NCBI GenBank assembly: GCA_965224245.1
Contig: OZ245046.1
Coordinates: forward strand, 4,576,001-4,640,000
Length of the DNA stretch: 64,000 nucleotides
Direction: 5' to 3'
Source of the DNA: Candidatus Eiseniibacteriota bacterium
Lineage (GTDB): Bacteria > Eisenbacteria > RBG-16-71-46 > CAZAMP01
In this document: positions 22,904 through 36,480 of the stretch, in pieces
Layout of the letters: each line of letters opens with the position of its first letter
Numbering within the stretch: the first letter of the stretch is position 1
Translations under genes and position numbers: made by a program
The notes under the pieces: generated by a model
The model's database searches: none
Told to the model about the DNA's origin: nothing
Seen by the model: only the letters and a program-made list of their open reading frames with translations

Positions 22904-22928
22904 CCGCGTTTCGTAAAATGAGACGAGG

Positions 22929-22937
22929 TGCTAGACT
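22929..22937 (+). promoter_or_regulatory. Extended -10 element TGCTAGACT upstream of the radical SAM operon
   Basis: Recurrent 9-mer about 40 nt before ATG 22977. Confidence 0.5.
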
Positions 22938-22976
22938 CTCTTCCTCGCCCGGAAAGACGTCGAAAAGGCACCGAGC

Positions 22977-24728
22977 ATGCTGGATCTCATGTCGCTCCGC
23001 GACGCGTCCTCGTTCGACCCCGACCCGTCCGCCGACACGCGTCTCGCGCTCGTTCACCAGGGCTTTCGAAGCGCGTTGATCCATCACGGCCAGGATCGCG
23101 TCCTCGGCTTCTACCCCCGGCTTCCGTCGCTCGGCCTGCTGAACCTCGCACACGCCTTGCGCGCCGACGCGCGCGACGGGCGCGTACCCGCTCGGCTCGA
23201 GTTTCGCTACTTCGAGGAGGAGGACTTCGACGGCGACGACGACCTCGCGCGCGCCGTGGAGGAGTGGCTGGCGGCCACTCCGAGACGCGCCCTCCTGGTG
23301 AGCACCTACACGAAGTCCGCCGAACGCGTGGAGAGGTTCCTCCGGCTGATCGACTTCCGCCGCGTGCTGGTCGTCGTCGGCGGGGCACATGCCACGCTCG
23401 CACCGGAGATGGACGGCGCGCACATTTCGGTCCGAGGCGAGGGACTGACCCCGATGCGCCACATCCTGACCCAGGTGCTCGGCCCCGGATTCGGTGCTGG
23501 AGACGACGCGCGGGGCATCTGCTATCGCGTGGGCGACCAGACGACTCTGTCGCCACCCGCGTTCGACACGTCGATCGCGACCGCCGAGCCTCCTGCGTTC
23601 GCCTACGACCTTCTCGGACGCGACGCGGGTCACGACCCCGCGCGGTTCCACACGCACTGGACCCGCGCAATCGGCGAGCGGCCCCAGATCTACATCTGCA
23701 CCCAGAGCTGTCGCGCCCGGTGCACGTTCTGCGCGACGTACGTGATTCACGGCCACACGGTGGCTCGTCCGGTCGAGCGGATCGCCGAGGATCTCGACAC
23801 CCTGGTCGGCGAGCTCGGTCACGATTGCATCGAATTCCACGACGACGATCTCCTGCAGCACGACGAGTTCGACGCGCTGATGGCGCTGCTCGAGGAGATC
23901 GGCATTCCGTGGTTCTGCTACGGGCGCGTGGACCTGATCACACGCGACGTCGCCCTACGCATGCGCCGCGCCGGATGCCGCCGCATCTTCCTCGGCTGCG
24001 AGGCCATGCGTCAGGACACGCTGGACTACTACCGAAAGGGCACCACGGTCGAGATGAACCGCGCCGCGGTCTCCCACCTCGACACCGCCGGCATCGGCGT
24101 CATCTCGGGGTTCATCATCGGCGCACCGCACGACACGACCGAGTCCATCCTCGACGAGATCGATCGCTTTCTCGATCTTCCCCTGTTCGCCGTTCACGTG
24201 AGCGTGCTGAACCCCGACATCTCGACCGTCGAGTTTCATCGCGCGCGGCGCCGTCAGCCCGAGGACTTCGCGCGTCTGGGCGACCGGCCGGGAAGGGTCC
24301 GGCGGGTCACGCCCAACGTGGAGGCGTTCGGCACCGGAAACCCGTTCGGGTTCCCCAGCGTGTGCGCGTCCGTCACCAAGGCCGAGCTCAACGCACTCCA
24401 GGATCTGGCCACGGTGCAGTTCTATCTGCGCGAGCACGTGTGGCGCCGGCTGTGGCGCGAGCTGCCGCCGGTGGCGCGACCCACGCTCGTGGATCACTAC
24501 CGGTGGGTGCTCGAGTCGGCGGATCAGCTCCTCGAGGCGCCGCCGTCGGCGGCCGTCTCGAGCCGCGTGGCCGCCTGCCTTGCGCACGCTCGCGGCGGGG
24601 ACTGGCTGCCGGACCGGGTCACGAGGCCTGCCGGGGTGACGACCGGCTCCGTGGCGATGCCGATGGGCGCCCGGTCACACCGGTCCGCCGCGTTCCGGGG
24701 CTCCGAACGACGGGGGCTCCGCGCATGA
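22977..24728 (+). CDS. B12-binding-domain radical SAM protein
   Basis: PSLGLLNLA and VVVGGAHAT (cobalamin-binding-domain-like); CxxxCxxC = CRARCTFC; FHDDD, AGCRRIFLGCE, FIIGAPHDT. Confidence 0.85.
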   Translation: MLDLMSLRDASSFDPDPSADTRLALVHQGFRSALIHHGQDRVLGFYPRLPSLGLLNLAHALRADARDGRVPARLEFRYFEEEDFDGDDDLARAVEEWLAATPRRALLVSTYTKSAERVERFLRLIDFRRVLVVVGGAHATLAPEMDGAHISVRGEGLTPMRHILTQVLGPGFGAGDDARGICYRVGDQTTLSPPAFDTSIATAEPPAFAYDLLGRDAGHDPARFHTHWTRAIGERPQIYICTQSCRARCTFCATYVIHGHTVARPVERIAEDLDTLVGELGHDCIEFHDDDLLQHDEFDALMALLEEIGIPWFCYGRVDLITRDVALRMRRAGCRRIFLGCEAMRQDTLDYYRKGTTVEMNRAAVSHLDTAGIGVISGFIIGAPHDTTESILDEIDRFLDLPLFAVHVSVLNPDISTVEFHRARRRQPEDFARLGDRPGRVRRVTPNVEAFGTGNPFGFPSVCASVTKAELNALQDLATVQFYLREHVWRRLWRELPPVARPTLVDHYRWVLESADQLLEAPPSAAVSSRVAACLAHARGGDWLPDRVTRPAGVTTGSVAMPMGARSHRSAAFRGSERRGLRA

Positions 24729-25216
24729 TCCTGACCGGTCCGGAGATCGTCCGCGAACGCGCGGCGGGTCGCATCCGAATATCCCCGTTCGACCCGGCGC
24801 ACGTGAATCCCAACAGCTACAACTACCGCCTCGCCCCGGCGCTGAGGCGGGTGCGATCGGCGGACGACGCCGGCGAGCCGATCGACATCCCCGGGACTGG
24901 GCTCGTGCTGGAGGCGCGCACGCTGTACCTCGGATCCACCGTGGAGACGCTGGGCAGCGAGCGCTACGTGACGTCGCTGATCGGACGCAGCTCGCTGGGA
25001 CGCCTCGGGTTGTTCCTGCAGATCTCGGCGAACATCGGACACCTCGGTGCGGCCCACAAGTGGACGCTCGAGCTCCGCGCGTGCCGGCCGATCCTGGTGT
25101 ACCCGAACATGATCATCGGCCAGGTGACCTTCTGGGAGATCGCCGGCGACCCGATGTCGTACGAGGGCTACTACGGTCGCTTCGATCATCCGACGCCGTG
25201 GAGGGGCCGCACGTGA
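24725..25216 (+). CDS. dCTP deaminase/dUTPase-fold protein, copy A
   Basis: MILTG, PNSYNYRL, GRSSLGRLGL, TLEL, YPNMIIGQVTF; ATGA overlap with the radical SAM gene. Confidence 0.85.
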   Translation: MILTGPEIVRERAAGRIRISPFDPAHVNPNSYNYRLAPALRRVRSADDAGEPIDIPGTGLVLEARTLYLGSTVETLGSERYVTSLIGRSSLGRLGLFLQISANIGHLGAAHKWTLELRACRPILVYPNMIIGQVTFWEIAGDPMSYEGYYGRFDHPTPWRGRT

Positions 25217-25761
25217 TTCTGACCGGTCACGAGATCGAGCGCTGCGTCGCACGGGGTGACATCGTGCTGGACCCGTTCGACCCGGCGCAGATCAATCCCA
25301 ACAGCTACGACCTGCGGCTCGGCCCGACGCTGCTCACCTATCGCGACGAGGTTCTGGATCCTCGCCGGGAGAACGCAACCGACCAGCACGACATTCCTCC
25401 GCAGGGGACCGTGCTGCGAGCCGGCGGCTTTTATCTCGGGGCGTCGGTCGAGCGCATCGGCAGCCGACGCATGGCACCGATCATCCACGCGAAGTCCGGC
25501 ATTGCACGGCTGGGGCTGTTCGTTCACGTGACCGCCGACCTCGTGGACATCGGGTCGATCGGCAACGTCACGTTCCAGCTCCACCCGACGATCGACGTCA
25601 CCGTGTATCCCGGAATGCTGCTGGGGCAGGTCTCGTTCTGGGCCGCGAAAGGCGAGGTGAGGTTGTACGAGGGCAAGTATCAGGGATCGGTGGGACCGCA
25701 GGCGTCGAAGAGCCACCTCCCGGCCGCGAGGTCCACGTCAGGAAGATGCCATGAGCGGTGA
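25213..25761 (+). CDS. dCTP deaminase/dUTPase-fold protein, copy B
   Basis: (M)ILTG, PNSYDLRL, AKSGIARLGLFVHVTA, VDIG, TFQL, YPGMLLGQVSF, KYQG; GTGA overlap. Confidence 0.85.
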   Translation: MILTGHEIERCVARGDIVLDPFDPAQINPNSYDLRLGPTLLTYRDEVLDPRRENATDQHDIPPQGTVLRAGGFYLGASVERIGSRRMAPIIHAKSGIARLGLFVHVTADLVDIGSIGNVTFQLHPTIDVTVYPGMLLGQVSFWAAKGEVRLYEGKYQGSVGPQASKSHLPAARSTSGRCHER

Positions 25762-26494
25762 CGCCGATCGAGATCGCCTGTTCGAAAGCCAGCTCCACCG
25801 CGAGGCGGACTTCGAGTTCGACGAGTCGGTGTCGAGCGTGTTCGATGACATGGTCGTGCGCAGCGTGCCGGATTACGCGCGCATCCAGGAGCTCATCGCG
25901 TCCATCGCGACGGACTTCCTCGGGACCGGATCGGTGGTGGTGGATCTCGGGTGTTCGACCGGACGCACGCTTCGGGCGATCGCAGCACGCGCGATCGAGC
26001 CGACGGTACGGCTCGTCGGCATCGATTCCTCACTTCCGATGCTCGATCGCGCGCGGGCCAACGTGCGGCACGAGCACCCTCACGACGCTCGCTTCGAGTT
26101 CCGTCACGATACGATCAGGGCCGACATGGCGCTCCCGCACGCATCGGTGGTCGTGTTGTGTCTGGTGCTGCAGTTCGTGCGTCCGCCCGAGAGGCTGGGC
26201 GTCGTACGACGGATCCGCGAGGCGCTCTCGTCCGAAGGGTGTCTTCTCCTGTACGAGAAGACCATACATCCCGACCCGCACGTCAACCGGCTGTTCATCG
26301 ATCGGTATCACGAGTTCAAGCGCAGCCAGGGATACACCGATCTCGAGGTCGCGCAGAAGCGTATCGCGCTGGAGAACGTCCTCGTGCCGTACCGGCACGA
26401 GGAGAACGTCGCGCTGCTGGAGGCGGGCGGGTTCTCTCGCGTGGACACGTTCTCGCAGTGGCTCAACTTCGTCGGCTACCTCGCGCGGCCGTGA
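25751..26494 (+). CDS. cmoA: Carboxy-S-adenosyl-L-methionine synthase-like
   Basis: FEFDESVSSVFDDMVVRSVPDY, DLGCSTG, LVLQF, EK, FKRSQGYTDLEVAQKRIALENV (CmoA signature incl. the QKR arginine). Confidence 0.82.
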   Translation: MSGDADRDRLFESQLHREADFEFDESVSSVFDDMVVRSVPDYARIQELIASIATDFLGTGSVVVDLGCSTGRTLRAIAARAIEPTVRLVGIDSSLPMLDRARANVRHEHPHDARFEFRHDTIRADMALPHASVVVLCLVLQFVRPPERLGVVRRIREALSSEGCLLLYEKTIHPDPHVNRLFIDRYHEFKRSQGYTDLEVAQKRIALENVLVPYRHEENVALLEAGGFSRVDTFSQWLNFVGYLARP

Positions 26495-26510
26495 CTCCAC
26501 GGAGGACGCC

Positions 26511-28220
26511 GTGATCGTCGCGGGCATCAACTCGGGGCTCGATGGGGCGCTCGCGCCGGTCCGCGGGGGATCCGCGGCGCTGATCGCCGACGGCGAGATC
26601 CTGGGTGCGGTGGCCGAGGAGCGCATCAGCCGCGAGAAGTGGGCCGGCGGATTCTCGGCCGCCCTTCCCGCGCTCCTCGACGACCACGGGCTCTCGCTCA
26701 CCGACGTGGACGCATTCTATCTGAGCTTCTACGGGAACCCCCCGAGCCCGCGCGACGAGCTCATACGGCTTCACCTCGACGAGCTCGGACTCGGTCGCAC
26801 ACCCGAGAAGCTGGTCACGCTGACGAGTCACCATCGATCCCACGCCGCGCTCGCGTTCTTCCTGTCGCCGTTCGACGAGGCCGCGATCCTGACCGCAGAC
26901 AACGAAGGTACACTCCTTTCGACCGGAGGCGACTTGCATCCCCCCGCGGCGCTTCACTGCGAGCGCAACGGATACTACTGGGCACGGGGCAATCAGATCA
27001 CGCTCCTCTCGCGTGACTTCTCCGACCCCTGGCACCCGGGCTTCGGCAAGATGTACAACAAGTTCACCGAGTACGTCGGCTTCGGCGACTATCACAACGC
27101 CGGCAAGACGATGGGGCTCTCCGGATACGCCGAGGTGCCCGACGCATTCGCCGGGCTCGAGCTGTGGGAGGAGCTACCGAGTGGTGCGCTCGCGTCCCGC
27201 GTCGACGACACCAATGACTGCGAATCCGACCTCCGGGAGTTCTTCGGCCGGCACGGCATCGACATTCCGCCTCCGGGCCGGGGCGACGACTACATGGATC
27301 CCCGTTACTGCCAGATGACCGCGTTCGTCCAGGATCAGCTGTGTCGGTGGGCGGCGCGCCGGTGCGGGCGTCTTCTCGACCAGTGCGGTGCACGAGCGCT
27401 CTGCGTCTCGGGCGGCGTCGGCCTGAACTCCGTGATGAACTCGCACCTCGAGCGAACGCTGGGCGTCCCGGTGTTCGTACCCCCGTTTCCGAGCGACCAG
27501 GGACAGGCGCTGGGCAACGCGATCCACGGGTTCGTCCGCGAGTCGGGTTGGGATCGAAACCCGACGCTCTCACCGCGACGCTTCGGGGACTACTTTTATC
27601 TGGGACCCTCGCACGACGCCGAGTCGATCGCCGCCGCCGCCGAGGACGCTCGCGGCGCGGCCACGCGACCCGACACCGATCGGCTGCTGGAGATCGTGGC
27701 CGATCTCCTCGACGGTGGTGCGGTCGTCGGTTGGTTCCAGGGTCGAAGCGAGTACGGCGCGCGTGCGCTCGGCAATCGAAGCGTGCTGGCCGATCCGCGG
27801 CCGGCCGGGATGCGTGATCGCGTGAACGACCTGAAGGGGCGCGAGCGATTTCGTCCGCTGGCGCCGTCCGTACTCGACCACGCGACCGCCGAGTGGTTCG
27901 AGGGGACCGACTCGCTCCTGTTACCGGGCATGCTGGGCGTGGTACGCGTACGACCCTTCGCGCGGGAACGGGTGGCCGCGATCACGCACGTGGACGGGAC
28001 AGCGCGCGTCCAGACCGTGAGCCGACGCACCAACCCACGTTACTTCGATCTGATCTCCGCCTTTCACCGGCGCACGGGCGTTCCGCTCGTGCTGAACACG
28101 TCCTTCAACGCGGCCGGCGATCCGATCGTGGAGACACCGTCCCAGGCCGTCGCGGCCTATGAGAAAATGCACCTCGACGCGCTCGTGCTCGACGACTGGC
28201 TGATCGTGCGTGCGACGTGA
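26511..28220 (+). CDS. NodU/CmcH/TobZ-family carbamoyltransferase
   Basis: EERISREK, HHRSHA, GKTMGLSGY, SGGVGLN, SDQGQALG, WFQGRSEYGARALGNRS, RPLAPS, HVDGTARVQ, LNTSFN; GGAGG RBS. Confidence 0.92.
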   Translation: MIVAGINSGLDGALAPVRGGSAALIADGEILGAVAEERISREKWAGGFSAALPALLDDHGLSLTDVDAFYLSFYGNPPSPRDELIRLHLDELGLGRTPEKLVTLTSHHRSHAALAFFLSPFDEAAILTADNEGTLLSTGGDLHPPAALHCERNGYYWARGNQITLLSRDFSDPWHPGFGKMYNKFTEYVGFGDYHNAGKTMGLSGYAEVPDAFAGLELWEELPSGALASRVDDTNDCESDLREFFGRHGIDIPPPGRGDDYMDPRYCQMTAFVQDQLCRWAARRCGRLLDQCGARALCVSGGVGLNSVMNSHLERTLGVPVFVPPFPSDQGQALGNAIHGFVRESGWDRNPTLSPRRFGDYFYLGPSHDAESIAAAAEDARGAATRPDTDRLLEIVADLLDGGAVVGWFQGRSEYGARALGNRSVLADPRPAGMRDRVNDLKGRERFRPLAPSVLDHATAEWFEGTDSLLLPGMLGVVRVRPFARERVAAITHVDGTARVQTVSRRTNPRYFDLISAFHRRTGVPLVLNTSFNAAGDPIVETPSQAVAAYEKMHLDALVLDDWLIVRAT

Positions 28221-28271
28221 GCGTGGCATGACGGCGCGCCACCGCAGAGGCCGCGCCGGGAGCAGACGACG

Positions 28272-30494
28272 ATGAGCTCTGACGACCGAACCCGGACCCG
28301 GCTCGACGAGGACCTCGTTCCCGAGTACCTCGATGCCGAGCATCTCGGGCGTGAGCCCGTGCTCGACGCTCTGCTCGGTGCGGTCCGGCGAGGGGGCGAG
28401 ACGATCTTCGTGATCGGACCGCCTGGATGCGGACGCCGACTCCTCGTGCTGGAGGCGGTCCGGCACCTCGACGCCGAGGACGACCACCGGTCCGTCTGGC
28501 TGTCCGGGACGACGGCGCCCGACGGACAGCTCGCCGTCCTGGCCGCGCGTGTGGGACTCGTCTCACGATCGGCACCGCACGCCACCAAGGTGCTCGTCGG
28601 ACGGGAGACGTTCCGGCGGTTGGCACCGGCGATCGCCGTCGTCGTGGGTGGCGCGCGCGAGACGTTGGCGGCCCTGGAGTCGGCGTGCGGCGAGGCCGCG
28701 GCCGTGGTCGGTGTCTGTGACCATGCAGACGGCGACCGGCTCATCGCGATCCCGCCGCTCTCGATGGATCGAGTCCGCGCGGTCGTAAAGACGGTGGCCG
28801 GGCGGGATCCCTCTTCCGTCCCGGACCTCGGCGGGCTCGATGCACTCGTCCACGCGATCGGGGGACACCTCGGTACCGCCGACATCGTGGGTCGCCTGGT
28901 GACTCACGCCGCGTCCGAGCAGGACGAGCCGTATCGCGGCGTGGCCGCGACGCTCGGGCTCCGCTGCGATGGGTCGTCGAACGCCCCGAGACACGCGCCC
29001 GATTCCGGGTCCGCCACGACGCTCGCCTCCGCCTTGCGCGTCGCGCGGGACGTCCTGTCGGAGGATGCGCGCACGACGCTCGACATCGTCGTGTGGCTGG
29101 CCGACGCCGGCATCGGCACCGAGTTCCTGGCAGCGCTCCTGTCCTGGGACACCGCGCGCGTGAGCCATGCCCTGGCAGAGTGCGAGCGGCTCGGACTCTG
29201 GGAAAGACCCGACATCGGTGGGGGCGACCGCCGCCGTGGGCGGGTGCCGCCGTCGGTACGGGTGACGCTCCGTTCATTGATCGGCGAGCCCGATCCCGGT
29301 CGTCTGGCAGAGGTTGGAGGCAGGGCGTTCGACTGGACGCGCGAGCACCGGCGTCGATCGGAGAGCTTCACGCGGGTCGAGCGCGAGCTCGCACACGTCG
29401 AGGCCCTCGCAGGACTCGCGGCGAGTGCGTCCCCGGCTCGCGCGATCGAGCTGTCGTGGCTCCTCGGCGCCGCGGAGTATCAGCGCGGGTGCTACGAGAC
29501 TGCCCGCGAGATCCTCCGGGCGGTGGCCGATCGAGCACACCACGATCGGCACGTTCGAGGCGAGATGCTGACCGACCTCGCGGCAAGCCAGGCACGGCTC
29601 GGCGCGATGACCGATGCGATCGCCACCGACCTCGACGCGCTCGCGTTGCGGCGCGAGGTGCTCGGGGACGCGCATCCGGACGTCGGTCGCACCATGCACG
29701 CGATCGGACTGAGCCACGCGGAGCTGGGGCGCTCCACCGAAGCGCTCGCGTGGCTGGGTGAGGCAGAGGCGAGGCTCCGGGCGGCGGGCGAGGAGGCTCG
29801 CACCGATCTCGCAATGTGCCTCAGCGATCTCGGCGTGACACATGCCGACCGGGGCGACTTCGCGGAGGCCGCGCGCCGACACCGCGAGGCGCTGAGGCTG
29901 GTGCCCGCCTCGGCCGACTCCGCGTCAGACCTGATCCGGACACGACTCCTGGCCAGCGCCGGTGGAACACACATCCGGGCGGGCGAGACCGCACGCGGCG
30001 AGAGGCTTCTCGTGCGGGCGCTGGCTCTCCTCGCCGAGCGACTCGGCGCGCCATCGGTGGAGCACGCGCGTCTCCTGGTCTCGCAGGCCGAGATCCTCCG
30101 CGCGACCGGCCGCGCGACGCGCGCCGTGCGGACCGCCCGCGCGGCCGTGATCGAGCTCGGCGCCGCGCTGTCGCCGGCGCACCTTCTGGTGACCGGTGCC
30201 CGGATCCAGCTCGCGCGCGCGCTACTCGCGGCCGACCGCGCGCACGAGGCGATCGAGATGGCCGATGCCGCTTACACGACGCGGAGGCGCCTGCTGGGCC
30301 TCGAGCACCCCGACACCGTCGATGCCGGCCAGGTCCTGGCGGAAGTGCTCTGCGCGTCCGGAGACGCACCCCGCGCGCGCGACGTCGTGACGCCGCTTCT
30401 TCCGCTGGTTGCGAACCGGGCGCAGCGTGAGGTGCTCGCGCGATTCGCCGATCCGTCCGAGAGATCGCATCGGCCCCGGGGCGGTTCCACGTGA
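28272..30494 (+). CDS. Degenerate NB-ARC/P-loop protein with kinesin-light-chain-type TPRs
   Basis: GPPGCGRR P-loop variant; winged-helix-like segment; TPRs RREVLGDAHPD and RRLLGLEHPDT. Confidence 0.7.
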   Translation: MSSDDRTRTRLDEDLVPEYLDAEHLGREPVLDALLGAVRRGGETIFVIGPPGCGRRLLVLEAVRHLDAEDDHRSVWLSGTTAPDGQLAVLAARVGLVSRSAPHATKVLVGRETFRRLAPAIAVVVGGARETLAALESACGEAAAVVGVCDHADGDRLIAIPPLSMDRVRAVVKTVAGRDPSSVPDLGGLDALVHAIGGHLGTADIVGRLVTHAASEQDEPYRGVAATLGLRCDGSSNAPRHAPDSGSATTLASALRVARDVLSEDARTTLDIVVWLADAGIGTEFLAALLSWDTARVSHALAECERLGLWERPDIGGGDRRRGRVPPSVRVTLRSLIGEPDPGRLAEVGGRAFDWTREHRRRSESFTRVERELAHVEALAGLAASASPARAIELSWLLGAAEYQRGCYETAREILRAVADRAHHDRHVRGEMLTDLAASQARLGAMTDAIATDLDALALRREVLGDAHPDVGRTMHAIGLSHAELGRSTEALAWLGEAEARLRAAGEEARTDLAMCLSDLGVTHADRGDFAEAARRHREALRLVPASADSASDLIRTRLLASAGGTHIRAGETARGERLLVRALALLAERLGAPSVEHARLLVSQAEILRATGRATRAVRTARAAVIELGAALSPAHLLVTGARIQLARALLAADRAHEAIEMADAAYTTRRRLLGLEHPDTVDAGQVLAEVLCASGDAPRARDVVTPLLPLVANRAQREVLARFADPSERSHRPRGGST

Positions 30495-32785
30495 CGCGCC
30501 GCAACGCACAGAGCCGTCCCGCGGGAGAGACGCAACGTCTGACGATCGTGGCGGTCGACTCGGAAGCCGACGAGGCGTGCCTCCTGACGAACCTCCCGGC
30601 GCTCGGTCGCCGGCTCGCGACCGCGGTGGTGCCCGCACGGCCCGACGACCCATGGGCACGGCGGCTCGCAGACTGGGCCCGGCGCCGGGGCATCCCGGTG
30701 GACGTCATCCCCGCCTCGACGCTGGCCGACGGGATGCCGGCGCGGGATCGCGCACCCGAGGTACGATCATCCGACCTCTTGATCGCCGACCCGGGGATCG
30801 AGCCGCCGGCGGTGGCGCTGGCCGCCGCACTGTCACGGCGGCGCGTCGTCGCGCGCGACGCGCTGAATGCGACCCCCGCGGACACCGTGCGGTCGGTGCT
30901 CGTGATCGAGGATCGAACGCCGGGGACGATCTGGCACACGCTTCCCGTGATCGAGGCATGCCGTGCGGCCGGAGCCAGCGTCGGCGTGATTCCGGTGACC
31001 GATGCTGTTCTGGCGCGGTTCGTGATCGCGAAGTGCCTCCTTTTCGATCGGGTCGTCCGGGGCCGATTCGCGCTGTCCTCGGGGGTCTACGGCGGAACGG
31101 ACTCCGGCGCGCTACACCGGCCGGCCGGTCTCGCCGGTCCGGACGACGCCGACACGGCCGATCTCGTCGGCGCGCGTCACGCCGTTCTCGTCGTGAACGG
31201 CCACTCCAACGAGTTCGACGTGGGGCTGGGCGACGATCAGCTGATCTGTGCCCGGGAGAGCACGCCCGAGGTCGACCGCACCGCGAGCACGCGCGTCCTC
31301 GCCTGCTTTCACGACGGCGTGTGTCACCGGCAGTCGTTCATCGGCCTGGACGGCCTCTCGACCGAGAGGCTCTTCTCGGCGTCCGACGTGCACTCCGATG
31401 TCCTGATCTCGACCGGGTGCAACGCGTCACGCGTGGTTCCCGGCCCCTCCGACCCCGCGGTCGCATTCTGTCACCAGGCGCTCGCGGGCGAGCAGACCGC
31501 CGTGGTCGCCAGCATCGGCGTGCTCGCCGCCTCGCTGGAGCTCGACTTCCTGTTCGTGGCGCTTCTGGCCGACGGATACACGCTGGGTGACGCCGTCTCC
31601 CGCGTCAACGACGAGCGTCGCGATCGCTTCGGTCAGCTCCGGGCGACGCCCGAGGCGTCCGACGCGTTCGTACTCTTCGGGAGCCCGGATCTCGAGGTGG
31701 AGCTCCCGTTGGTCCGCGTCGAGCCACGGTGGGTCGATGGCTGCGCGACGCTCTCGCTCGACGACATGCCGGTTCACGACCCTACGGGCGTGGTCGTGCG
31801 CATGCGCACGCCTCCGTACGACGAGACACCGATCGTGCTGGTCGACGCGCCGGAGTCGATCTGGGTTCGGGGGGTGTGGACAAACGGTAACGGCGGTGGA
31901 GCACTGTACCTGTGGGTCTCCGGGTCCGATCGCGCCGGGGCCTCGCTGGCGGTGCGGCTGGCCGACCGCTCCCCCTGGGAAGCCCATGCCACGGCCCTCG
32001 CCCGCGCCACGACGCAGCACGCATTCTGGTCGCTCTTTCTCGACCAGGTGCTCGAGCGCCGGCGGGCTGGGAGCGGAGACGTCGACGGGATCGCCGAGAT
32101 CGTCATGGGTCTCTCCCGAGTGCTCCGGAGCTTGACGTCGGGGGCGATCGCCCTCGATCCGCCACGCGGACTCGTCACCCCGATCGCGCCGGTGAGCCGC
32201 GCGGCGGAGACGTCGTGGGAGCAGCTGACGTCACTGACCGCCACGCTGCTCGATCAGCTTTTCGAGCACGCCTACTCGCAAGGTGTGGTCAGCTCGGGCG
32301 CGTGGACGCCGTACTTCCGGCGCGGATCGCGGCCGATCGCGTCCGAGCCGTGCGCGTGCGGCTCCGGCACGCGGACCGGGCACGGATACGAGAGCGTCAC
32401 CCGTGACGGCGTCGTGCGTGCCACGTACGAGTGCGATGCCTGCGGCAAGGTCGCCGACACGGACGGGCGAGGTCTCCTCTCGCTCGTCGAGTGGTCGGGC
32501 GTCGCCACGCGCGGCTCGATCTTCCGCTGCGAAGGTCGCGTCCGGGCGCCGGCGACCGAGGCGGTGCTGTTCGCGGCCATTCCGCTGATCGCCGGAGAGC
32601 GCGGCCACCGGCACGCGGCGTGGGGAAAGCTCGCGTCGTCCACGGTGCCGGCGGGGCGCGAGGCGCGGGTAACGTTCACGCTAGAGATCTCCGACGACAT
32701 GCCCGTCGGTCTGCACAACTTCGCGGTTGTCGCGATCGTGAACGTGGCGCCCTACGTTCTTCGACACTGGCTGGAGATCCGATGA
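30491..32785 (+). CDS. Hypothetical protein with clan CD (C25/caspase-like) peptidase signature and C-terminal Cys motifs
   Basis: VLVVNGHS (His238), VLISTGCN (Cys310), TLGDAV...FVLFGSP; CACG...CDACG; GTGA overlap. Confidence 0.6.
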   Translation: MTRRNAQSRPAGETQRLTIVAVDSEADEACLLTNLPALGRRLATAVVPARPDDPWARRLADWARRRGIPVDVIPASTLADGMPARDRAPEVRSSDLLIADPGIEPPAVALAAALSRRRVVARDALNATPADTVRSVLVIEDRTPGTIWHTLPVIEACRAAGASVGVIPVTDAVLARFVIAKCLLFDRVVRGRFALSSGVYGGTDSGALHRPAGLAGPDDADTADLVGARHAVLVVNGHSNEFDVGLGDDQLICARESTPEVDRTASTRVLACFHDGVCHRQSFIGLDGLSTERLFSASDVHSDVLISTGCNASRVVPGPSDPAVAFCHQALAGEQTAVVASIGVLAASLELDFLFVALLADGYTLGDAVSRVNDERRDRFGQLRATPEASDAFVLFGSPDLEVELPLVRVEPRWVDGCATLSLDDMPVHDPTGVVVRMRTPPYDETPIVLVDAPESIWVRGVWTNGNGGGALYLWVSGSDRAGASLAVRLADRSPWEAHATALARATTQHAFWSLFLDQVLERRRAGSGDVDGIAEIVMGLSRVLRSLTSGAIALDPPRGLVTPIAPVSRAAETSWEQLTSLTATLLDQLFEHAYSQGVVSSGAWTPYFRRGSRPIASEPCACGSGTRTGHGYESVTRDGVVRATYECDACGKVADTDGRGLLSLVEWSGVATRGSIFRCEGRVRAPATEAVLFAAIPLIAGERGHRHAAWGKLASSTVPAGREARVTFTLEISDDMPVGLHNFAVVAIVNVAPYVLRHWLEIR

Positions 32786-33960
32786 AGAGCGGGCGCGACC
32801 GGGCTCGCGGCGGGCTCACCGGCATCATCAGGGGCCGGATCACGCGCCTTCACCGCCTCGGTCGGCGCCTCGCGTTCGCCGACGTCGACGATCAGGGACA
32901 GCTCACCTCTCTCGTTCTCGAAGGCGACTTCCCCGACGTGCGCCGCGGCGATCTCGTCACGGCGGCCGGCGAGTGGACGCGGTCCCGCGAGCTTCGGGTC
33001 GCCCGGATCGACGTCCACGGCCGGATCACGGATCTCCGGCGGCCATCGGCCCCGGCGGCCCGTCTGCTCGACCCGCGGCGGCTGGAGGCGCTACGGATTC
33101 GCTCGGCGGCGATTGCCGCCCTGCACCGTTTCTTTCATGAGACGGACTTCGTTCCCGTCGACTCGCCGACGATCGTGTCCGACTGGGTGCGCGGCCAGAC
33201 GGGCGCGTTCAACCTGGACTTCTACGACGAGGACGCGTTCCTGAAGATCAGCAACATGCCCTACCACCAGGTGCTCCTGACCGGCGGCTTCTCGCGCATC
33301 TACGAGATCGGCAAGCTCTTTCGACGCGAGCATCCCAGCTCGATCCACCGACTGGCGGAGTTCACGATCCTGGACGTCAGCTGGACCGGAGCACGTCTGG
33401 ACGATCTGATGACGTTCTTCGAGGGGGTCGTGCGCGCGACCATCGACGCGCTCTCGCCTCGGCGGATGACACTCGTCGAGGACATCCGCTTCGACCGGGT
33501 GACGGTACGCGAGCTGCTCGACGCAGCCAGCATCGAGCGGACGACGGGCGCCCAGCTCCCGGCGCCGGTCCGGCGCCACCTCGAGCGGACCCACTCGAGC
33601 TTCGTGTGGGTGACCGGATTTCCGGCGAGAACACGACCGTTCTACGTCCGCGCATCGTCGTACGACCGGGACGGGGCCGACGCGACCTGCGCGGACTGCC
33701 AGCTCTGGTTTCGGGGTCGGACCTTTCTCGCGGCCGGGGGCGAGGTCGAGTCGGACCGGGCGGTGCTGGAGGCACGCATCCGGGACGAGGGCAAGGACCC
33801 GAGACCCTACGCGTTTCTGCTGGACGCGGTCGAGCTCGGGCTCCACGACGCCGTCGGGATCGGGATGGGCGTCGAGCGGTTCCTGGCCAACGTCTTGACC
33901 CCGTCCACCGTCGCCGATTTCACGCTGTGTCCTCGCTATCGCGGCCACGTCACGCCGTGA
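32782..33960 (+). CDS. Class IIb (Asp/Asn/Lys) aminoacyl-tRNA synthetase-like protein
   Basis: OB-fold-like N-terminus (IRGRI..HRLGRRLAFADV.D); motif 1 RS...HRFF..DFVPVDSPTI; motif 2 YEIGKLFRRE..EFT; motif 3 GIGMGVERF; ATGA overlap. Confidence 0.82.
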   Translation: MKSGRDRARGGLTGIIRGRITRLHRLGRRLAFADVDDQGQLTSLVLEGDFPDVRRGDLVTAAGEWTRSRELRVARIDVHGRITDLRRPSAPAARLLDPRRLEALRIRSAAIAALHRFFHETDFVPVDSPTIVSDWVRGQTGAFNLDFYDEDAFLKISNMPYHQVLLTGGFSRIYEIGKLFRREHPSSIHRLAEFTILDVSWTGARLDDLMTFFEGVVRATIDALSPRRMTLVEDIRFDRVTVRELLDAASIERTTGAQLPAPVRRHLERTHSSFVWVTGFPARTRPFYVRASSYDRDGADATCADCQLWFRGRTFLAAGGEVESDRAVLEARIRDEGKDPRPYAFLLDAVELGLHDAVGIGMGVERFLANVLTPSTVADFTLCPRYRGHVTP

Positions 33961-33980
33961 CCTTCGAAGGAGTCAGACCG

Positions 33981-34757
33981 ATGAGCGCCCACCGCCCGCT
34001 TCACCAGTCGCCCCTCGATGGCGACGAGTGGCGTCGCATCGCCGCCAACTACGACCAGGAGCGTGACGCGCACTCGCTGCCCGCTGCGCTGGTGGACGAC
34101 CTGGTGGTCGATCTGGCCGGTGTGGATCGATCGTCCGTGGTGCTCGATCACGGTGCGGGCACGGGTACTCTCGCCGCACGGCTGGCTCCCCACGCCGGTC
34201 GCGTGCTGTGCTACGAGCCGGGCCCCGAGATGCGGCGCCGGCTGGAGACGCGGGCCGAGACGCTGGAGAGCGTGAGCGTGGTCTCCGATCCGAGCACGCT
34301 GGCGGACGAATCGGTCGACGTCGTGCTGAGCGTGAACGTCCTCGATCACGTACCCGACGTCGCACCCGTGCTCGCGCTCTTTCGGCGCGTCTCGAGACCG
34401 ACTGGTCGCGTACTGGTCGTGCTGCCGCACCCGCTCAAGGATCTCGGTCACTGGGTACGCCGGCGCGACGACGGCGGTGAGTGGGTATACGACCACTACC
34501 TGCTTCAGGACTACCTCCGCGAGGGGCTGTGCGCGAAGAGCCGGGAGGACCGACACGGGAATCGCGTCGTGACCGACTTCGTGAGTCACCACCGGAGGCT
34601 CTCGACGTACCACCGATGGCTTCGCGACGCGGGCTTCTCGATCGATGACCTGCTGGAGCCCGAGCCGCCCGCGTCGCTCGCGCGATCACACCCGATCCTG
34701 TACCAGCAGTGCTCGCGGATTCCGTACTTCGTCGTGCTCGCGTGCTCGCCCGGGTGA
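33981..34757 (+). CDS. Class I SAM-dependent methyltransferase-fold protein
   Basis: VLDHGAGTG, DVVLSVNVLDHV, HHRRLSTY...AGFSI..LLEP; AAGGAG RBS. Confidence 0.85.
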   Translation: MSAHRPLHQSPLDGDEWRRIAANYDQERDAHSLPAALVDDLVVDLAGVDRSSVVLDHGAGTGTLAARLAPHAGRVLCYEPGPEMRRRLETRAETLESVSVVSDPSTLADESVDVVLSVNVLDHVPDVAPVLALFRRVSRPTGRVLVVLPHPLKDLGHWVRRRDDGGEWVYDHYLLQDYLREGLCAKSREDRHGNRVVTDFVSHHRRLSTYHRWLRDAGFSIDDLLEPEPPASLARSHPILYQQCSRIPYFVVLACSPG

Positions 34758-34835
34758 CGCGGGCGGTGGGATGCGCGAGCGTGGATGCTCGCCGGGCATT
34801 CGGCGGGGCCGCAGCGGACCCGCCACGCCGGCCTC

Positions 34836-35507: not shown

Positions 35508-35520
35508 CTCTCCCTCGCCG

Positions 35521-35529
35521 ATGGTATCA
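35521..35529 (-). promoter_or_regulatory. Extended -10 element TGATACCAT
   Basis: TGn-TAnnnT just upstream of the ATG at 35507. Confidence 0.35.
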
Positions 35530-36475: not shown

Positions 36476-36480
36476 CCTCG

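What the first reader, a model, noticed from the sequence alone, without database searches (positions are those of the whole stretch)
22977..34757. Unrecognised 9-gene nucleoside/aminoacyl-modification operon (B12-rSAM, Dcd x2, CmoA, carbamoyltransferase, NB-ARC-TPR, clan-CD protease, aaRS paralog, methyltransferase)
Seen: nine co-oriented genes behind one TGCTAGACT promoter element. Four junctions are ATGA/GTGA overlaps (24725, 25213, 30491, 32782), one is an 11-nt overlap, and the rest are gaps of 16-51 nt. Known: albomycin biosynthesis combines a carbamoyltransferase, radical SAM enzymes, a methyltransferase and SerRS paralogs on a cytosine nucleoside; carboxymethyl-cytidylate microcin C variants use a CmoA-like MccS; agrocin 84 uses aaRS-like proteins; phage NodU-type enzymes carbamoylate 5-hydroxymethylcytosine. 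Inference: the operon builds a multiply modified pyrimidine nucleotide or aminoacyl-nucleoside (deaminated, carboxymethylated, carbamoylated, methylated, amino-acid-ligated), either an aaRS-inhibiting antibiotic or an RNA/DNA base modification, with a TPR/protease module for control or maturation. I do not recognise this gene set as a described pathway. No MccB/ThiF enzyme, precursor peptide, NRPS or exporter is visible.
Basis: partly seen in the sequence, partly recalled or inferred. Interest (0 to 1): 0.88.

Follow-up and report, generated by a model that had tools for sequence, protein, structure and literature searches.

The report
Nucleotide-antibiotic-like operon with split deaminase pair
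This is a real nine-gene operon whose conserved heart, a tRNA-synthetase look-alike beside two complementary half-disabled dCTP-deaminase copies, recurs in unrelated microbes next to exporters and spare tRNA synthetases, so it most likely makes an undescribed amino-acid-linked pyrimidine nucleotide antibiotic.

Summary
There are nine co-oriented genes with four 4-nt start/stop overlaps, one 11-nt overlap and gaps of 16-51 nt. All nine domain calls were reproduced.

Co-conservation splits the operon in three.
- Core: the AspRS-like paralog g8 with Dcd1 (g2) and Dcd2 (g3). It recurs in Bacillota, Pseudomonadota, Bacteroidota and Actinomycetota.
- Alternative tailoring sets: CmoA with the g9-type methyltransferase, or the carbamoyltransferase. 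The window has both.
- Not co-conserved: the degenerate STAND-TPR protein g6 and the gingipain-like g7.

In 12 of 12 Dcd pairs one copy keeps the catalytic Glu but lacks the motif-III Asp, and the other does the reverse. The Glu-to-Gln type has about 1,470 detected relatives. Related loci carry MFS exporters, extra AspRS, SerRS, HisRS or ProRS-like genes, and MccF-like S66 and HIT proteins.

Best reading, about 0.5: a gene cluster for a decorated aminoacyl-pyrimidine nucleotide, analogous to cytidylate-type microcin C but without MccB or a precursor peptide. No product or activity is shown. Six literature searches for such a cluster found no description.

The parts
22929..22937 (+). TGCTAGACT, an extended -10-like element 48 nt upstream of g1
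   Evidence: The sequence is present and occurs a second time at 38262. The consensus scan called no promoter in 19000-36000. Function was not tested.
22977..24728 (+). g1: B12-binding-type radical SAM enzyme, 583 aa. An accessory gene specific to this window.
   Evidence: Radical_SAM 59.5 bits. B12-binding 29.6 bits against a cutoff of 32.1. Best NCBIfam match is the PhpK family of P-methyltransferases, 75.6 bits, far below cutoff. It is not orthologous to the radical SAM protein of L005 and L060.
24725..25216 (+). g2: Dcd1, a dCTP-deaminase-fold protein. It keeps motif II (GRSSLGR) and the catalytic Glu (TLE). The motif-III Asp is replaced (NIGH).
   Evidence: PF22769 98 bits. TIGR02274 45.9 bits against a cutoff of 92.8. 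Aligned to the M. tuberculosis Dcd structures 2qlp and 2qxx. The motif pattern holds in 11 of 11 Dcd1 orthologs. The Dcd1 group has 97/93 support.
25213..25761 (+). g3: Dcd2, a dCTP-deaminase-fold protein. It keeps the motif-III Asp (LVDIG) and the C-terminal KYQGS lid. The catalytic Glu is replaced by Gln (TFQL).
   Evidence: PF22769 126 bits. TIGR02274 94.7 bits against a cutoff of 92.8. Aligned to 2qxx. Gln is present in 11 of 11 orthologs and in 114 of the 120 best database relatives.
25751..26494 (+). g4: CmoA-like carboxy-SAM synthase
   Evidence: TIGR00740 216.8 bits, above the cutoff of 193.3. Orthologs lie beside a g9-type methyltransferase in L005, L009, L027 and L030.
26511..28220 (+). 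g5: carbamoyltransferase of the NodU/CmcH/TobZ type
   Evidence: Carbam_trans_C 211 bits and Carbam_trans_N 91 bits. Orthologs of 33-35% identity lie next to the aaRS paralog in L007, L008, L028, L029 and L031.
28272..30494 (+). g6: TPR protein with a degenerate STAND-like N-terminal P-loop (GPPGCGRR). Not co-conserved with the core.
   Evidence: TPR_12 89 bits, TPR_10 55 bits, AAA_16 21.9 bits (below cutoff). tblastn found no match in any related locus. It shows no similarity to the STAND-TPR proteins beside the Streptomyces Dcd-pair cluster.
30491..32785 (+). g7: cytoplasmic gingipain-like (clan CD, C25-like) multidomain protein with a Cys4 zinc ribbon. Not co-conserved with the core.
   Evidence: No Pfam or NCBIfam hit. 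HMMER listed 103 proteins, the query's own entry among them, so 102 distant relatives. G237, H238, C310, C621, C623 and C651 are invariant and C648 nearly so. AlphaFold pLDDT 88. Foldseek best hits are RgpB and Kgp. The Atlas neighbour cluster is named 'C25 family cysteine peptidase'. Absent from all related loci.
32782..33960 (+). g8: class IIb aaRS paralog (AspRS/AsnRS-like) with full OB-fold plus catalytic-core architecture and a changed amino-acid pocket. It is the signature gene of the conserved core.
   Evidence: tRNA-synt_2 146 bits. Best NCBIfam match is AspRS NF003483, 134.6 bits against a cutoff of 353. The family shares about 36-46% identity. The model matches 1b8a AspRS at TM 0.77 and AsnRS at 0.80. 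Motif changes are shown.
33981..34757 (+). g9: class I SAM-type methyltransferase (family MT-A). Inferred to be the carboxymethyl transferase that uses the CmoA product.
   Evidence: Methyltransf_11 55 bits. Orthologs of 32-42% identity occur in L005, L009 and L027, plus a terminal fragment in L030, always with CmoA. It did not match CmoB in NCBIfam.

Best explanation
The operon is a horizontally acquired biosynthetic gene cluster for a small, decorated aminoacyl-pyrimidine nucleotide or nucleoside. The product is most likely an aminoacyl-adenylate mimic that poisons an aminoacyl-tRNA synthetase.

Shown: the conserved core is the class IIb aaRS paralog g8 plus the Dcd1/Dcd2 pair.

Inferred mechanism:
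1. Dcd1 and Dcd2 work on (d)CTP. Dcd2 keeps the dUTPase-type Asp and carries Gln in place of Glu. It would bind the cytosine nucleotide without deaminating it and act at the alpha-phosphate, as a diphosphatase or nucleotidyl transferase. Dcd1 keeps Glu and has lost the Asp. It would supply a deaminase-type site or serve as the obligate partner subunit.
2. g8 keeps the ATP-binding motifs 2 and 3 but has lost the aspartate-recognition residues. It would activate an amino acid and join it to the nucleotide.
3. CmoA makes carboxy-SAM, and g9 transfers the carboxymethyl group to the base. g5 carbamoylates the molecule and g1 C-methylates it.

g6 and g7 are a lineage-specific insertion. They may regulate, give immunity or process the product, but they are not part of the conserved pathway.
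For: Core linkage.
- The g8 family lies beside Dcd-like genes in 11 of 14 loci that hold a clear g8 relative: L005-L009, L025-L028, L030 and L032. The three misses, L029, L031 and L033, are contigs that end close by.
- These loci come from four bacterial phyla.
- g7 and Dcd2 were each found in 1 of 206 genomes of the window's own phylum, namely the window's genome itself.

Complementary loss in the Dcd pair.
- It holds in 12 of 12 pairs. The 3 single-copy Dcd genes keep both residues.
- Dcd1 and Dcd2 form separate groups with 97/93 and 97/95 support.

Export.
- An MFS_3 gene lies directly upstream of the core in the minimal locus L006.
- An MFS_1 gene lies in L008.

Full-length aaRS genes inside or beside the clusters.
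- AspRS in L005, 438 bits against a cutoff of 353.
- AspRS in L009. It is a second copy in that genome.
- SerRS in L007. It is a second copy in that genome.
- HisRS in L027, 341 bits against a cutoff of 287.
- A plasmid-borne ProRS-like gene in L042.

Microcin C-type accessory functions next to Dcd pairs.
- An S66 peptidase in L042 and L060, and a HIT protein in L042.
- A PLP decarboxylase plus a methyltransferase in L060.
- Passages of the review PMC8323819 give the microcin C counterparts. MccF is an S66 peptidase. MccH is a HIT phosphoramidase. MccD and MccE1 are a SAM-dependent transferase and a decarboxylase.
- According to those passages, the cxSAM synthase MccS, a carboxymethyltransferase domain and the carbamoyltransferase homolog MccY occur only in cytidylate-type clusters, whose payload inhibits AspRS.

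State of g8.
- The motif 2 Arg/Glu and the motif 3 Arg are kept.
- QSPQ..K has become ISNM..H.
- The residue at the place of the AspRS side-chain Arg varies. It is R in L005, L006 and L009; V in the window, L008 and L029; M in L007; T in L025; and I in L027.
- The R type sits next to AspRS in 2 of its 3 loci.
Against: - No product, activity or expression was observed. Every enzymatic step is inferred from homology and gene neighbourhood.
- The window's own cluster has no exporter, no extra aaRS, and no S66 or HIT gene. The genome shows no duplicated class IIa or IIb synthetase.
- In the genome holding L005, the cluster-linked AspRS may be the only AspRS. No bacterial-type AspRS scored above cutoff in that 2.2-Mb genome.
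- The aaRS neighbours could supply aminoacyl-tRNA rather than give resistance.
- g8 keeps a complete anticodon-binding OB fold, which fits a tRNA-directed role.
- Some Dcd-pair loci, L043 and L061, hold only kinases, NUDIX proteins and phosphatases. They look like nucleotide-pool enzymes, not antibiotic clusters.
- L007 and L029 paralogs have lost the motif 3 Arg.
- The PADLOC library used dates from 2023, so a newer defence family would be missed.
Confidence: 0.5

Rival explanations
1. Nucleic-acid hypermodification. The operon builds a modified pyrimidine at the free-nucleotide level or on a polymer, and the base ends up in DNA or tRNA. It would be carboxymethylated, carbamoylated, methylated and aminoacylated. 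The PLD-like nuclease upstream could act as a restriction partner.
For: - Every tailoring enzyme has a tRNA-modification homolog. This list is recalled knowledge, not from a call: CmoA/CmoB for cmo5U, the TsaC/TsaD relatives of NodU-type enzymes, MiaB-type radical SAM enzymes, and GluQRS.
- g8 keeps the OB anticodon-binding fold.
- Some Dcd-pair loci combine small P-loop kinase-like proteins, deaminases, methyltransferases and glycosyltransferases. This recalls the dCTPase-kinase-glucosyltransferase logic of phage T4 (recalled).
- A PLD protein similar to DrmC lies directly upstream.
Against: - MFS exporters, S66, HIT and APH-like genes and duplicated aaRS genes in related loci fit a secreted toxin better.
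- tblastn of the phage record collection gave no match at E 1e-20.
- The only 4 hits in viral contigs were canonical Asp+Glu Dcd proteins.
- The PLD gene and the HTH gene are not conserved in any related locus.
- No DNA transferase, polymerase or tRNA-guanine-transglycosylase-like gene was seen in the operon.
Confidence: 0.15
2. Anti-phage or conflict system. The Dcd pair depletes or converts dCTP, or makes a nucleotide signal or chain terminator, on infection. The TPR-STAND protein g6 would be the sensor and the clan CD protease g7 the effector.
For: - STAND-TPR proteins combined with caspase-like proteases are typical of conflict systems (recalled).
- XRE-type HTH regulators and STAND-TPR proteins also flank the Streptomyces Dcd-pair cluster L042.
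- The distribution is patchy and plasmid-borne.
- A PLD nuclease-like gene lies upstream.
Against: - No PADLOC model matched g1-g8. g4 was not in the batch, and g9 gave only a generic methyltransferase hit.
- g6 and g7 are absent from every related locus. The conserved part is therefore the biosynthetic one.
- The g6 Walker A lysine is replaced (GPPGCGRR).
- Exporters, glycosyltransferases, tailoring enzymes and extra aaRS genes are not features of depletion systems.
Confidence: 0.12
3. Ordinary metabolism or a chance mosaic. The Dcd pair is only a heteromeric variant of the housekeeping dCTP deaminase/dUTPase. g8 is a spare or drug-resistant AspRS, and the remaining genes are unrelated neighbours.
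For: - The genome has no other clear Dcd. Its only other hit to the family is partial.
- Dcd2 scores just above the NCBIfam Dcd cutoff, 94.7 against 92.8.
Against: - The pair was found in 1 of 206 genomes of the phylum and in 4 of 401 sampled genomes of an archaeal phylum. That is far too rare for housekeeping.
- No subunit combination restores a site with motif II, the Asp and the Glu together.
- g8 lacks the QSPQ..K aspartate-binding residues and scores 134.6 bits against the AspRS cutoff of 353.
- The linkage recurs across four phyla.
Confidence: 0.05

Closest known systems
Cytidylate-type microcin C-like clusters (mccABC with MccS, the C-terminal carboxymethyltransferase domain of MccB, and MccY). 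I read passages of the review PMC8323819.
   Same: - A carboxy-SAM synthase homolog, a methyltransferase and a carbamoyltransferase homolog are grouped around a cytosine nucleotide.
- The target class is an aaRS, AspRS in the microcin case.
- S66, HIT and decarboxylase-type accessory genes recur in related Dcd-pair loci.
   Different: - No ThiF/MccB enzyme lies in the window, and no precursor peptide gene was seen.
- The core is instead a class IIb aaRS paralog plus a split dUTPase-fold pair.
- g9 is a separate protein and did not match CmoB.
- I could not compare sequences with MccS, MccY or MccB because none was available to the tools.
Albomycin biosynthesis: a seryl-thionucleoside SerRS inhibitor.
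   Same: - A cytosine nucleoside carries carbamoyl and methyl groups.
- Radical SAM enzymes, aaRS paralogs and a resistant SerRS copy are in the cluster.
- The L007-type cluster has a carbamoyltransferase, a methyltransferase and a second SerRS.
   Different: - No siderophore NRPS and no thioheptose enzymes were seen here.
- The paralog is AspRS-like, not SerRS-like.
- Dcd-fold proteins are not part of the albomycin pathway as I recall it.
Bifunctional dCTP deaminase:dUTPase of M. tuberculosis and M. jannaschii (PDB 2qlp, 2qxx, 4a6a, 1ogh)
   Same: They are the best solved relatives of both g2 and g3. The fold is the same, and Dcd2 has the same C-terminal lid.
   Different: Those enzymes carry motif II, the motif-III Asp and the catalytic Glu in a single chain. 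Here the Asp and the Glu are split between two obligately paired paralogs.
Non-canonical class II aaRS paralogs: AsnA, EpmA/GenX, and amino-acid:carrier-protein ligases (recalled)
   Same: A class II catalytic core is reused for amino-acid activation outside translation. g8 gives weak NCBIfam matches to AsnA (66 bits) and EpmA (51 bits).
   Different: Those paralogs lack the OB domain as I recall. g8 keeps the whole two-domain AspRS/AsnRS architecture and scores below every curated cutoff.
Gingipains RgpB and Kgp (clan CD, family C25)
   Same: They are the best structural matches to g7. g7 has an invariant His238 and Cys310 after beta strands.
   Different: - g7 has no Pfam C25 hit and no signal peptide is evident.
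- It has extra helical and zinc-ribbon domains.
- TM-scores are low (0.23 / 0.37) because only part of the protein aligns.

Membership tests
dCTP deaminase (Dcd, TIGR02274 / PF22769) | DCD/dUTPase fold recognised by the family profile | tested here: met
   PF22769 scores 98 bits for g2 and 126 bits for g3.
dCTP deaminase (Dcd, TIGR02274 / PF22769) | Equivalog score above the NCBIfam cutoff of 92.8 bits | tested here: inconclusive
   g2 scores 45.9 bits, below the cutoff. g3 scores 94.7 bits, just above it.
dCTP deaminase (Dcd, TIGR02274 / PF22769) | The catalytic Glu and the motif-III Asp together in one chain. Their roles are recalled from the E. coli, M. tuberculosis and M. jannaschii literature. 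| tested here: not met
   g2 has the Glu but His at the Asp column. g3 has the Asp but Gln at the Glu column. The same holds in 11 pairs, and a twelfth pair is split in another way.
Aspartyl-tRNA synthetase (class IIb aaRS) | OB anticodon-binding domain plus a class II catalytic core with the motif 2 and motif 3 arginines | tested here: met
   The AlphaFold model has a five-strand N-terminal barrel and a catalytic core. Foldseek gives TM 0.77-0.81 to AspRS and AsnRS. FRRE and GxGxGxER are present.
Aspartyl-tRNA synthetase (class IIb aaRS) | Aspartate-recognition residues (the QSPQ..K motif and the side-chain Arg; roles recalled) and a score above the curated cutoff | tested here: not met
   The motif reads ISNM..H in place of QSPQ..K. 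The window protein has Val at the Arg position. The best AspRS model scores 134.6 bits against a cutoff of 353.
Aspartyl-tRNA synthetase (class IIb aaRS) | Charges tRNA(Asp) | not testable with these tools
   This needs an aminoacylation assay.
CmoA carboxy-SAM synthase | Score above the curated equivalog cutoff | tested here: met
   TIGR00740 scores 216.8 bits against a cutoff of 193.3. The narrower model NF011995 scores 147.8 bits against 285 and is not met.
CmoA carboxy-SAM synthase | Works with a CmoB-type carboxymethyl transferase | tested here: not met
   g9 gave no CmoB hit, only a weak CmoM match at E 0.003. The role of g9 rests on co-occurrence with CmoA in L005, L009, L027 and L030.
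NodU/CmcH/TobZ carbamoyltransferase | Both the Carbam_trans_N and Carbam_trans_C domains above cutoff | tested here: met
   The domains score 90.7 and 211.2 bits. The NodU equivalog itself is not met: 142.6 bits against a cutoff of 1000.
B12-binding radical SAM methyltransferase | Radical SAM core with CxxxCxxC, plus an N-terminal cobalamin-binding domain | tested here: inconclusive
   Radical_SAM scores 59.5 bits and CRARCTFC is present. The B12-binding domain scores 29.6 bits, below the cutoff of 32.1.
Microcin C-like (mcc) gene cluster | MccB ThiF-like nucleotidyltransferase and an MccA precursor peptide ending in Asn | tested here: not met
   No PF00899 hit falls in the window: the genome's three hits are all elsewhere. 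I did not search systematically for a short precursor ORF.
Microcin C-like (mcc) gene cluster | Cytidylate-type decoration kit: cxSAM synthase, carboxymethyltransferase, carbamoyltransferase homolog | tested here: inconclusive
   The same families are present as g4, g9 and g5, and the review describes such a kit. No direct sequence comparison with MccS, MccY or MccB was possible.
Clan CD cysteine peptidase (C25, gingipain-like) | Caspase-like alpha/beta fold with a conserved His-Cys dyad | tested here: met
   Foldseek best hits are 1cvr, 4ief and 6i9a, E 2e-7 to 1e-5. G237, H238 and C310 are invariant in 36 sequences. There is no Pfam PF01364 hit, so this is a distant relationship at most.
STAND NTPase (NB-ARC/AAA_16) with TPR sensor | Intact Walker A (GxxxxGK[ST]) and an NTPase domain above cutoff | tested here: not met
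   AAA_16 scores 21.9 bits against a cutoff of 32.6. Walker A reads GPPGCGRR, with Lys replaced by Arg. The TPR_12 and TPR_10 repeats are clear.
Known anti-phage defence systems (PADLOC 2.0.0) | Match to any defence-system protein model | tested here: not met
   None for g1, g2, g3, g5, g6, g7 or g8. g4 was not in the batch. g9 gave only a generic methyltransferase hit, and the upstream PLD gene matched DrmC models.

The most novel reading that the evidence does not exclude
The split Dcd1/Dcd2 pair is a previously unrecognised nucleotide-activating module, with about 1,470 detected relatives across bacteria and DPANN archaea. Together with a dedicated class IIb aaRS paralog it forms a peptide-independent, MccB-independent route to aminoacyl-pyrimidine-nucleotide antibiotics. 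On this reading the dUTPase-fold enzyme works as a nucleotidyl transferase rather than a hydrolase. The amino-acid moiety, and hence the target synthetase (Asp, Ser, His or Pro), is swapped between clusters, each of which carries the matching resistant synthetase.
Probability: 0.3. Interest if true: 0.88.

Novelty: new variant of a known kind. Interest (0 to 1): 0.77.

Why it matters
If the reading is right, three things follow.
- It adds a new biosynthetic logic for aminoacyl-tRNA-synthetase inhibitors, a validated antibiotic target class. The core enzymes (an aaRS paralog and a complementary pair of dUTPase-fold proteins) have not been linked to natural products in the literature I could search.
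- It flags about 1,470 proteins now annotated 'dCTP deaminase' that lack the catalytic glutamate and are probably mis-annotated.
- The minimal four-gene form (exporter, paralog, Dcd1, Dcd2) gives a small system that can be tested directly.

Even if the antibiotic reading fails, the strict complementary loss of two catalytic residues in an always-paired enzyme family is an enzymological puzzle worth solving.

Tried and rejected
- g7 context. The word-based search found only g7 itself. There was no match in the 205 other genomes of the phylum, none in 401 sampled Actinomycetota with the A2 profile, and none in plasmids. Whether g6-like genes usually accompany g7 relatives is therefore unknown.
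- g8 against plasmids: no match at E 1e-25.
- Earlier findings of this scan: three look-ups returned nothing.
- Literature. Searches returned 0 papers. One search returned 3 and one search returned 1; I saw only the listings, and none is relevant by title or abstract. One search led to the review PMC8323819, of which I read passages only. Its Fig. 6 and its supplement, which list the mcc-like clusters, were not visible to me and could hold Dcd-containing examples.
- Expression: no RNA holder listed.
- Complex prediction was not used. A Dcd1-Dcd2 pass would be expected from likeness to solved homotrimers and would not move my odds.
- g8 as a resistant AspRS: rejected because the aspartate-binding residues are lost.
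- g1 as a conserved cluster member: rejected.
- g6 as an ortholog of the Streptomyces STAND-TPR neighbours: rejected.
- The single dcd genes on Paenibacillus and Aneurinibacillus megaplasmids are canonical Dcd proteins in unrelated contexts. I used them only as outgroups.
- No comparison with antiSMASH, MIBiG or an EFI-GNT style neighbourhood census was available.

Full report
**1. Observation**

The window has about 70% G+C. It is positions 4576001-4640000 of a 6.45-Mb contig in a 6.9-Mb genome.

| Gene | Coordinates |
|---|---|
| g1 | 22977-24728 |
| g2 | 24725-25216 |
| g3 | 25213-25761 |
| g4 | 25751-26494 |
| g5 | 26511-28220 |
| g6 | 28272-30494 |
| g7 | 30491-32785 |
| g8 | 32782-33960 |
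| g9 | 33981-34757 |

- The junctions are ATGA or GTGA overlaps at 24725, 25213, 30491 and 32782. There is one 11-nt overlap, and gaps of 16, 51 and 20 nt.
- All nine genes have GC3 of 0.83-0.90. None looks compositionally foreign.
- TGCTAGACT lies at 22929 and again at 38262.
- The sigma-70 consensus scan found no promoter-like site in 19000-36000. The promoter is unproven.

**2. Domain content**

- g1 is a radical SAM enzyme with a sub-threshold B12-binding domain.
- g2 and g3 are DCD-fold proteins.
- g4 scores above the CmoA equivalog cutoff, 216.8 against 193.3.
- g5 is a two-domain NodU-type carbamoyltransferase.
- g6 is a TPR protein with a weak AAA_16 match.
- g8 is a class II D/K/N synthetase core, 146 bits. 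It is far below the AspRS cutoff, 134.6 against 353.
- g9 is a class I methyltransferase.

g7 has no family hit.
- A profile-free HMMER scan listed 103 proteins, the query's own entry among them, so 102 distant relatives.
- An alignment of 36 sequences shows invariant G237, H238, C310, C621, C623 and C651, with C648 nearly invariant. That is a Cys4 ribbon.
- The AlphaFold model (pLDDT 88) matches gingipains R and K best.
- The nearest Atlas clusters include one named 'C25 family cysteine peptidase'.

So 'clan CD protease' is supported as a distant structural relationship.

**3. What is conserved**

g8 defines a small family of about 36-46% identity. Scans with an alignment of it retrieved 5 loci from species genomes (L005-L009) and 9 from metagenomes (L025-L033). 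tblastn with all window proteins gave the following.
- Dcd-like genes lie next to the paralog in 11 of these 14 loci. In the other three (L029, L031, L033) the contig ends nearby.
- Both Dcd1 and Dcd2 orthologs are present in L005, L006, L007, L008, L027, L028 and L030.
- L025 and L026 have one Dcd gene only.
- CmoA always comes with a g9-type methyltransferase, which I call MT-A. This holds in L005, L009, L027 and L030.
- The carbamoyltransferase comes with a different methyltransferase family, MT-B, in L007, L008 and L029.
- The window is a hybrid: it carries CmoA, MT-A and the carbamoyltransferase.
- g6, g7 and the upstream HTH-TPR and PLD genes match nothing in any related locus.
- g1 resembles the L005 radical SAM protein only over the 155-aa core, at 28% identity. 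That L005 protein has a true ortholog in an archaeal locus, 43.6% over 535 aa.

The named hosts are a Bacillota MAG, a Xanthobacteraceae MAG, a Chitinophagales MAG, Varibaculum timonense and a Pseudonocardiaceae MAG. Within the window's own phylum, g7 and Dcd2 were each found in 1 of 206 genomes, the window's own. The cluster is therefore rare, mobile and modular.

**4. The Dcd pair**

I aligned 27 Dcd-like proteins (earlier subset).

| Type | Motif II | Motif-III Asp column | Glu column | Count |
|---|---|---|---|---|
| Dcd1 | GRSSxGR kept | His, Gln or Asn | Glu kept (TLE) | 11 of 11 |
| Dcd2 | changed to [KR]S[GS]xAR | Asp kept (LID[IL]G) | Gln | 11 of 11 |
| L046 protein a | kept | Asp kept | Met | 1 pair |
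| L046 protein b | lost | His | Glu kept | (same pair) |
| Single-copy (L025, L048, L049) | kept | Asp kept | Glu kept | 3 of 3 |

- In 4 of the 11 Dcd1 proteins an Asp sits two columns earlier than the motif-III column.
- Dcd2 also keeps the C-terminal KYQGS lid.
- The roles of these residues are recalled from work on E. coli, M. tuberculosis and M. jannaschii enzymes. Those are also the best solved relatives.
- Motif II and motif III come from different subunits in dUTPase-fold trimers (recalled). On that basis no combination of Dcd1 and Dcd2 rebuilds a canonical site (inference).
- Dcd1 and Dcd2 form separate well-supported groups, 97/93 and 97/95. Inside each group the CmoA-type loci (window, L005, L027) and the carbamoyl-type loci (L007, L008) cluster in parallel.

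**5. The pair is far more widespread than the paralog**

- A database search with g3 gave 1,472 proteins at E <= 1e-3, out of 1,566 candidates scored.
- Of the best 120, which share 54-69% identity with g3, 114 carry Gln at the Glu position. The other 6 did not fit my regular expression. One of them, which I printed, also reads TLQM.
- Sources name them 'dCTP deaminase' in Burkholderia lata, Streptomyces mirabilis, Arthrobacter polaris, Paractinoplanes maris, Litoreibacter, Cytophagales, and Woesearchaeota and Nanobdellota archaea.
- tblastn found 18 plasmid records. Fourteen of them have more than one matching place (13 with two, 1 with three).
- The phage records gave no match.
- A scan of viral contigs gave 4 relatives, all canonical Asp+Glu proteins.
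- In a sample of 401 genomes of a DPANN archaeal phylum, 4 had a match.

**6. Neighbours of Dcd pairs**

The annotation is as deposited, plus my Pfam scans.

| Locus | Source | Genes around the pair |
|---|---|---|
| L042 | Streptomyces plasmid | HTH, two STAND-TPR proteins, XRE regulator; Erm-like methyltransferase, phosphoesterase, TauD, Dcd1, Dcd2, PIG-L, WbqC, GT4, a ProRS-like protein (class IIa core, editing and anticodon domains), MurG-like, HIT, SDR, two radical SAM proteins, S66 peptidase |
| L044, L045, L047 | Streptomyces, Nocardiopsis, Nonomuraea plasmids | small P-loop protein, Dcd1, Dcd2; a cytidine deaminase in L044 and an unannotated 153-aa protein at that position in L047 (none in L045); orthologous methyltransferase, sugar enzymes, glycosyltransferase; APH-like and GNAT genes nearby in L047 |
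| L043 | Rhizobium etli plasmid | Dcd1, Dcd2, methyltransferase, Zn-deaminase-domain protein, NUDIX, metallophosphoesterase |
| L046 | Streptomyces plasmid | MurA-like, metallophosphoesterase, the variant pair |
| L060 | DPANN archaeon | PLP decarboxylase, radical SAM, S66 peptidase, methyltransferase, Dcd1, Dcd2 |
| L061 | DPANN archaeon | NDK-HD, phosphodiesterase, NUDIX, Dcd1, Dcd2, histidine phosphatase, HD |

**7. Neighbours in the paralog-type loci**

- L006 is the minimal form: MFS_3 exporter, paralog, Dcd1, Dcd2.
- L008 adds an ATP-grasp ligase, an MFS_1 transporter and MT-B.
- L005 has a full-length archaeal-type AspRS directly downstream, 438 bits against a cutoff of 353. An M20 amidohydrolase lies upstream.
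- L007 has a SerRS, 481 bits, directly downstream. That genome holds a second SerRS elsewhere.
- L027 has a HisRS, 341 bits against a cutoff of 287, inside the cluster.
- L009 is a decayed cluster. The paralog is frameshifted and fused by deletion to the middle of Dcd2.
  - It lies next to a bacterial-type AspRS that is the second copy in its genome.
  - That genome, G207, is flagged unpublished, so these L009 claims rest on restricted data.
- In the genome of L005 no bacterial-type AspRS scored above cutoff. The linked AspRS may be the only one there.

By a rough estimate of my own, a given handful of flanking genes should include one of a genome's roughly twenty synthetase genes only a few percent of the time. 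This is not a computed statistic. Four of nine distinct paralog-type clusters do include one.

**8. The paralog itself**

- The model keeps the whole AspRS/AsnRS architecture, OB barrel plus class II core (pLDDT 81.6). Foldseek gives TM 0.77 to 1b8a and 0.80 to AsnRS.
- The motif 2 Arg and Glu and the motif 3 Arg are present in the window protein and in the 17-member alignment.
- L007 and L029 have lost the motif 3 Arg.
- The aspartate-binding signature QSPQ..K of the true AspRS in L005 reads IS[NHT]M..H in the paralogs.
- The position of the AspRS side-chain Arg (GAQREHR) varies:
  - R in L005, L006 and L009;
  - V in the window, L008 and L029;
  - M in L007;
  - T in L025;
  - I in L027.
- R-type paralogs sit beside AspRS in two of three loci. 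The M-type sits beside SerRS and the I-type beside HisRS.

With one or two examples each, this is a lead and not a result.

**9. Interpretation**

Passages of the review PMC8323819 state the following.
- Cytidylate-type microcin C-like clusters, and only those, encode the cxSAM synthase MccS. They also encode a carboxymethyltransferase domain and, in some cases, the carbamoyltransferase homolog MccY.
- The released payload inhibits AspRS.
- MccF (an S66 peptidase) and MccH (a HIT protein) give immunity.
- MccD and MccE1 (a decarboxylase) add an aminopropyl group.

The same functional classes recur around Dcd pairs and the paralog. The defining MccB/ThiF enzyme is absent from the window, and I saw no precursor peptide.

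I therefore read the family as a different, peptide-independent route to an aminoacyl-pyrimidine nucleotide.
- The dUTPase-fold pair handles (d)CTP.
- The paralog supplies the amino acid.
- The tailoring genes decorate the base.

This is inference from start to finish. The window's own cluster lacks an exporter, a spare synthetase and an S66 or HIT gene, and the genome shows no duplicated class IIa or IIb synthetase. Loci such as L043 and L061 look more like nucleotide-pool operons.

**10. Rivals**

- DNA or tRNA hypermodification fits the enzyme families and the retained OB fold. It does not explain the exporters, the immunity-type genes and the spare synthetases, and the Gln-type protein was not found in phage collections.
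- A defence system fits g6, g7, the upstream PLD gene (DrmC-like) and the HTH gene. But those are exactly the parts that are not conserved, and PADLOC matched none of g1-g3 and g5-g8; g4 was not in the batch.
- Housekeeping Dcd is excluded by rarity and by the active-site pattern.

**11. Verdict**

The finding is real, and its core is co-conserved. No paper returned by the six cluster searches describes it.
- Antibiotic-cluster reading: about 0.5.
- Hypermodification: 0.15.
- Defence: 0.12.
- Ordinary metabolism or chance mosaic: 0.05.
- The remainder is unassigned.

Novelty: a new variant of a known kind, aaRS-inhibitor-type nucleotide clusters, built on an apparently new enzymatic core. Interest: 0.77.

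Noticed in passing
window 20071-21684 and 21629-22903 (+): An XRE-type HTH protein with TPR repeats and a two-domain PLD-like protein (best PADLOC matches DrmC) lie directly upstream of the operon, co-oriented and overlapping each other by 56 nt. Neither has a match in any related locus.
   Followed up: partly
window 19419-20225 (+), 17395-19320 (-), 15698-17704 (-): A PEP-CTERM-tailed protein, an FG-GAP repeat protein and a glycosyltransferase-DUF547 protein lie upstream. This points to a Gram-negative-type envelope in a 70% G+C organism from a small phylum with 206 species genomes.
   Followed up: no
L009 9700-10800: A decayed copy of the cluster. The aaRS paralog is frameshifted, and its GGERE region is fused by deletion to the middle of Dcd2. 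Dcd1 is missing, while CmoA, MT-A and a second AspRS copy remain. The genome is flagged unpublished.
   Followed up: partly
L046 10001-11073 (Streptomyces sp. NBC_01562 plasmid): A Dcd pair split in a different way. One member keeps motif II and the Asp but has Met at the Glu position. The other keeps the Glu but has lost both motif II and the Asp. It lies next to MurA-like and metallophosphoesterase genes.
   Followed up: partly
L060 (G850:C9:23500-40000) and L061 (G972:C10:7800-24400): DPANN archaeal genomes of about 1 Mb carry the same Dcd1/Dcd2 pair at 57-60% identity to g3. One locus also has an S66 peptidase, a PLP decarboxylase and a radical SAM ortholog of the Bacillota locus L005. The other has NDK-HD, NUDIX and phosphatase genes.
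   Followed up: partly
G000 whole genome: The genome has no other clear DCD-family gene besides g2 and g3. The only other hit is a partial match at C1:2000949-2001206, possibly a dUTPase.
   Followed up: no
window 37240-39123 (+): An enoyl-CoA hydratase domain fills only the last 250 residues of a 627-aa ORF. The first 370 or so residues have no Pfam match. The second TGCTAGACT copy, at 38262, lies inside this ORF.
   Followed up: no
window 34836-35507 (-) and 35631-36500 (-): A convergent class I methyltransferase and a 289-aa protein without any family match lie directly downstream of g9. Apart from weak partial similarity of the methyltransferase to methyltransferases in L027 and L008 (31-33% over 73-86 aa), neither has a counterpart in the related loci.
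   Followed up: partly
L007 3697-4119, 5120-7030 and 13628-15334: A C39 peptidase domain ORF, a 636-aa protein without family match and a papain-like C1 peptidase flank the Chitinophagales cluster. They may hint at a peptide component there.
   Followed up: no
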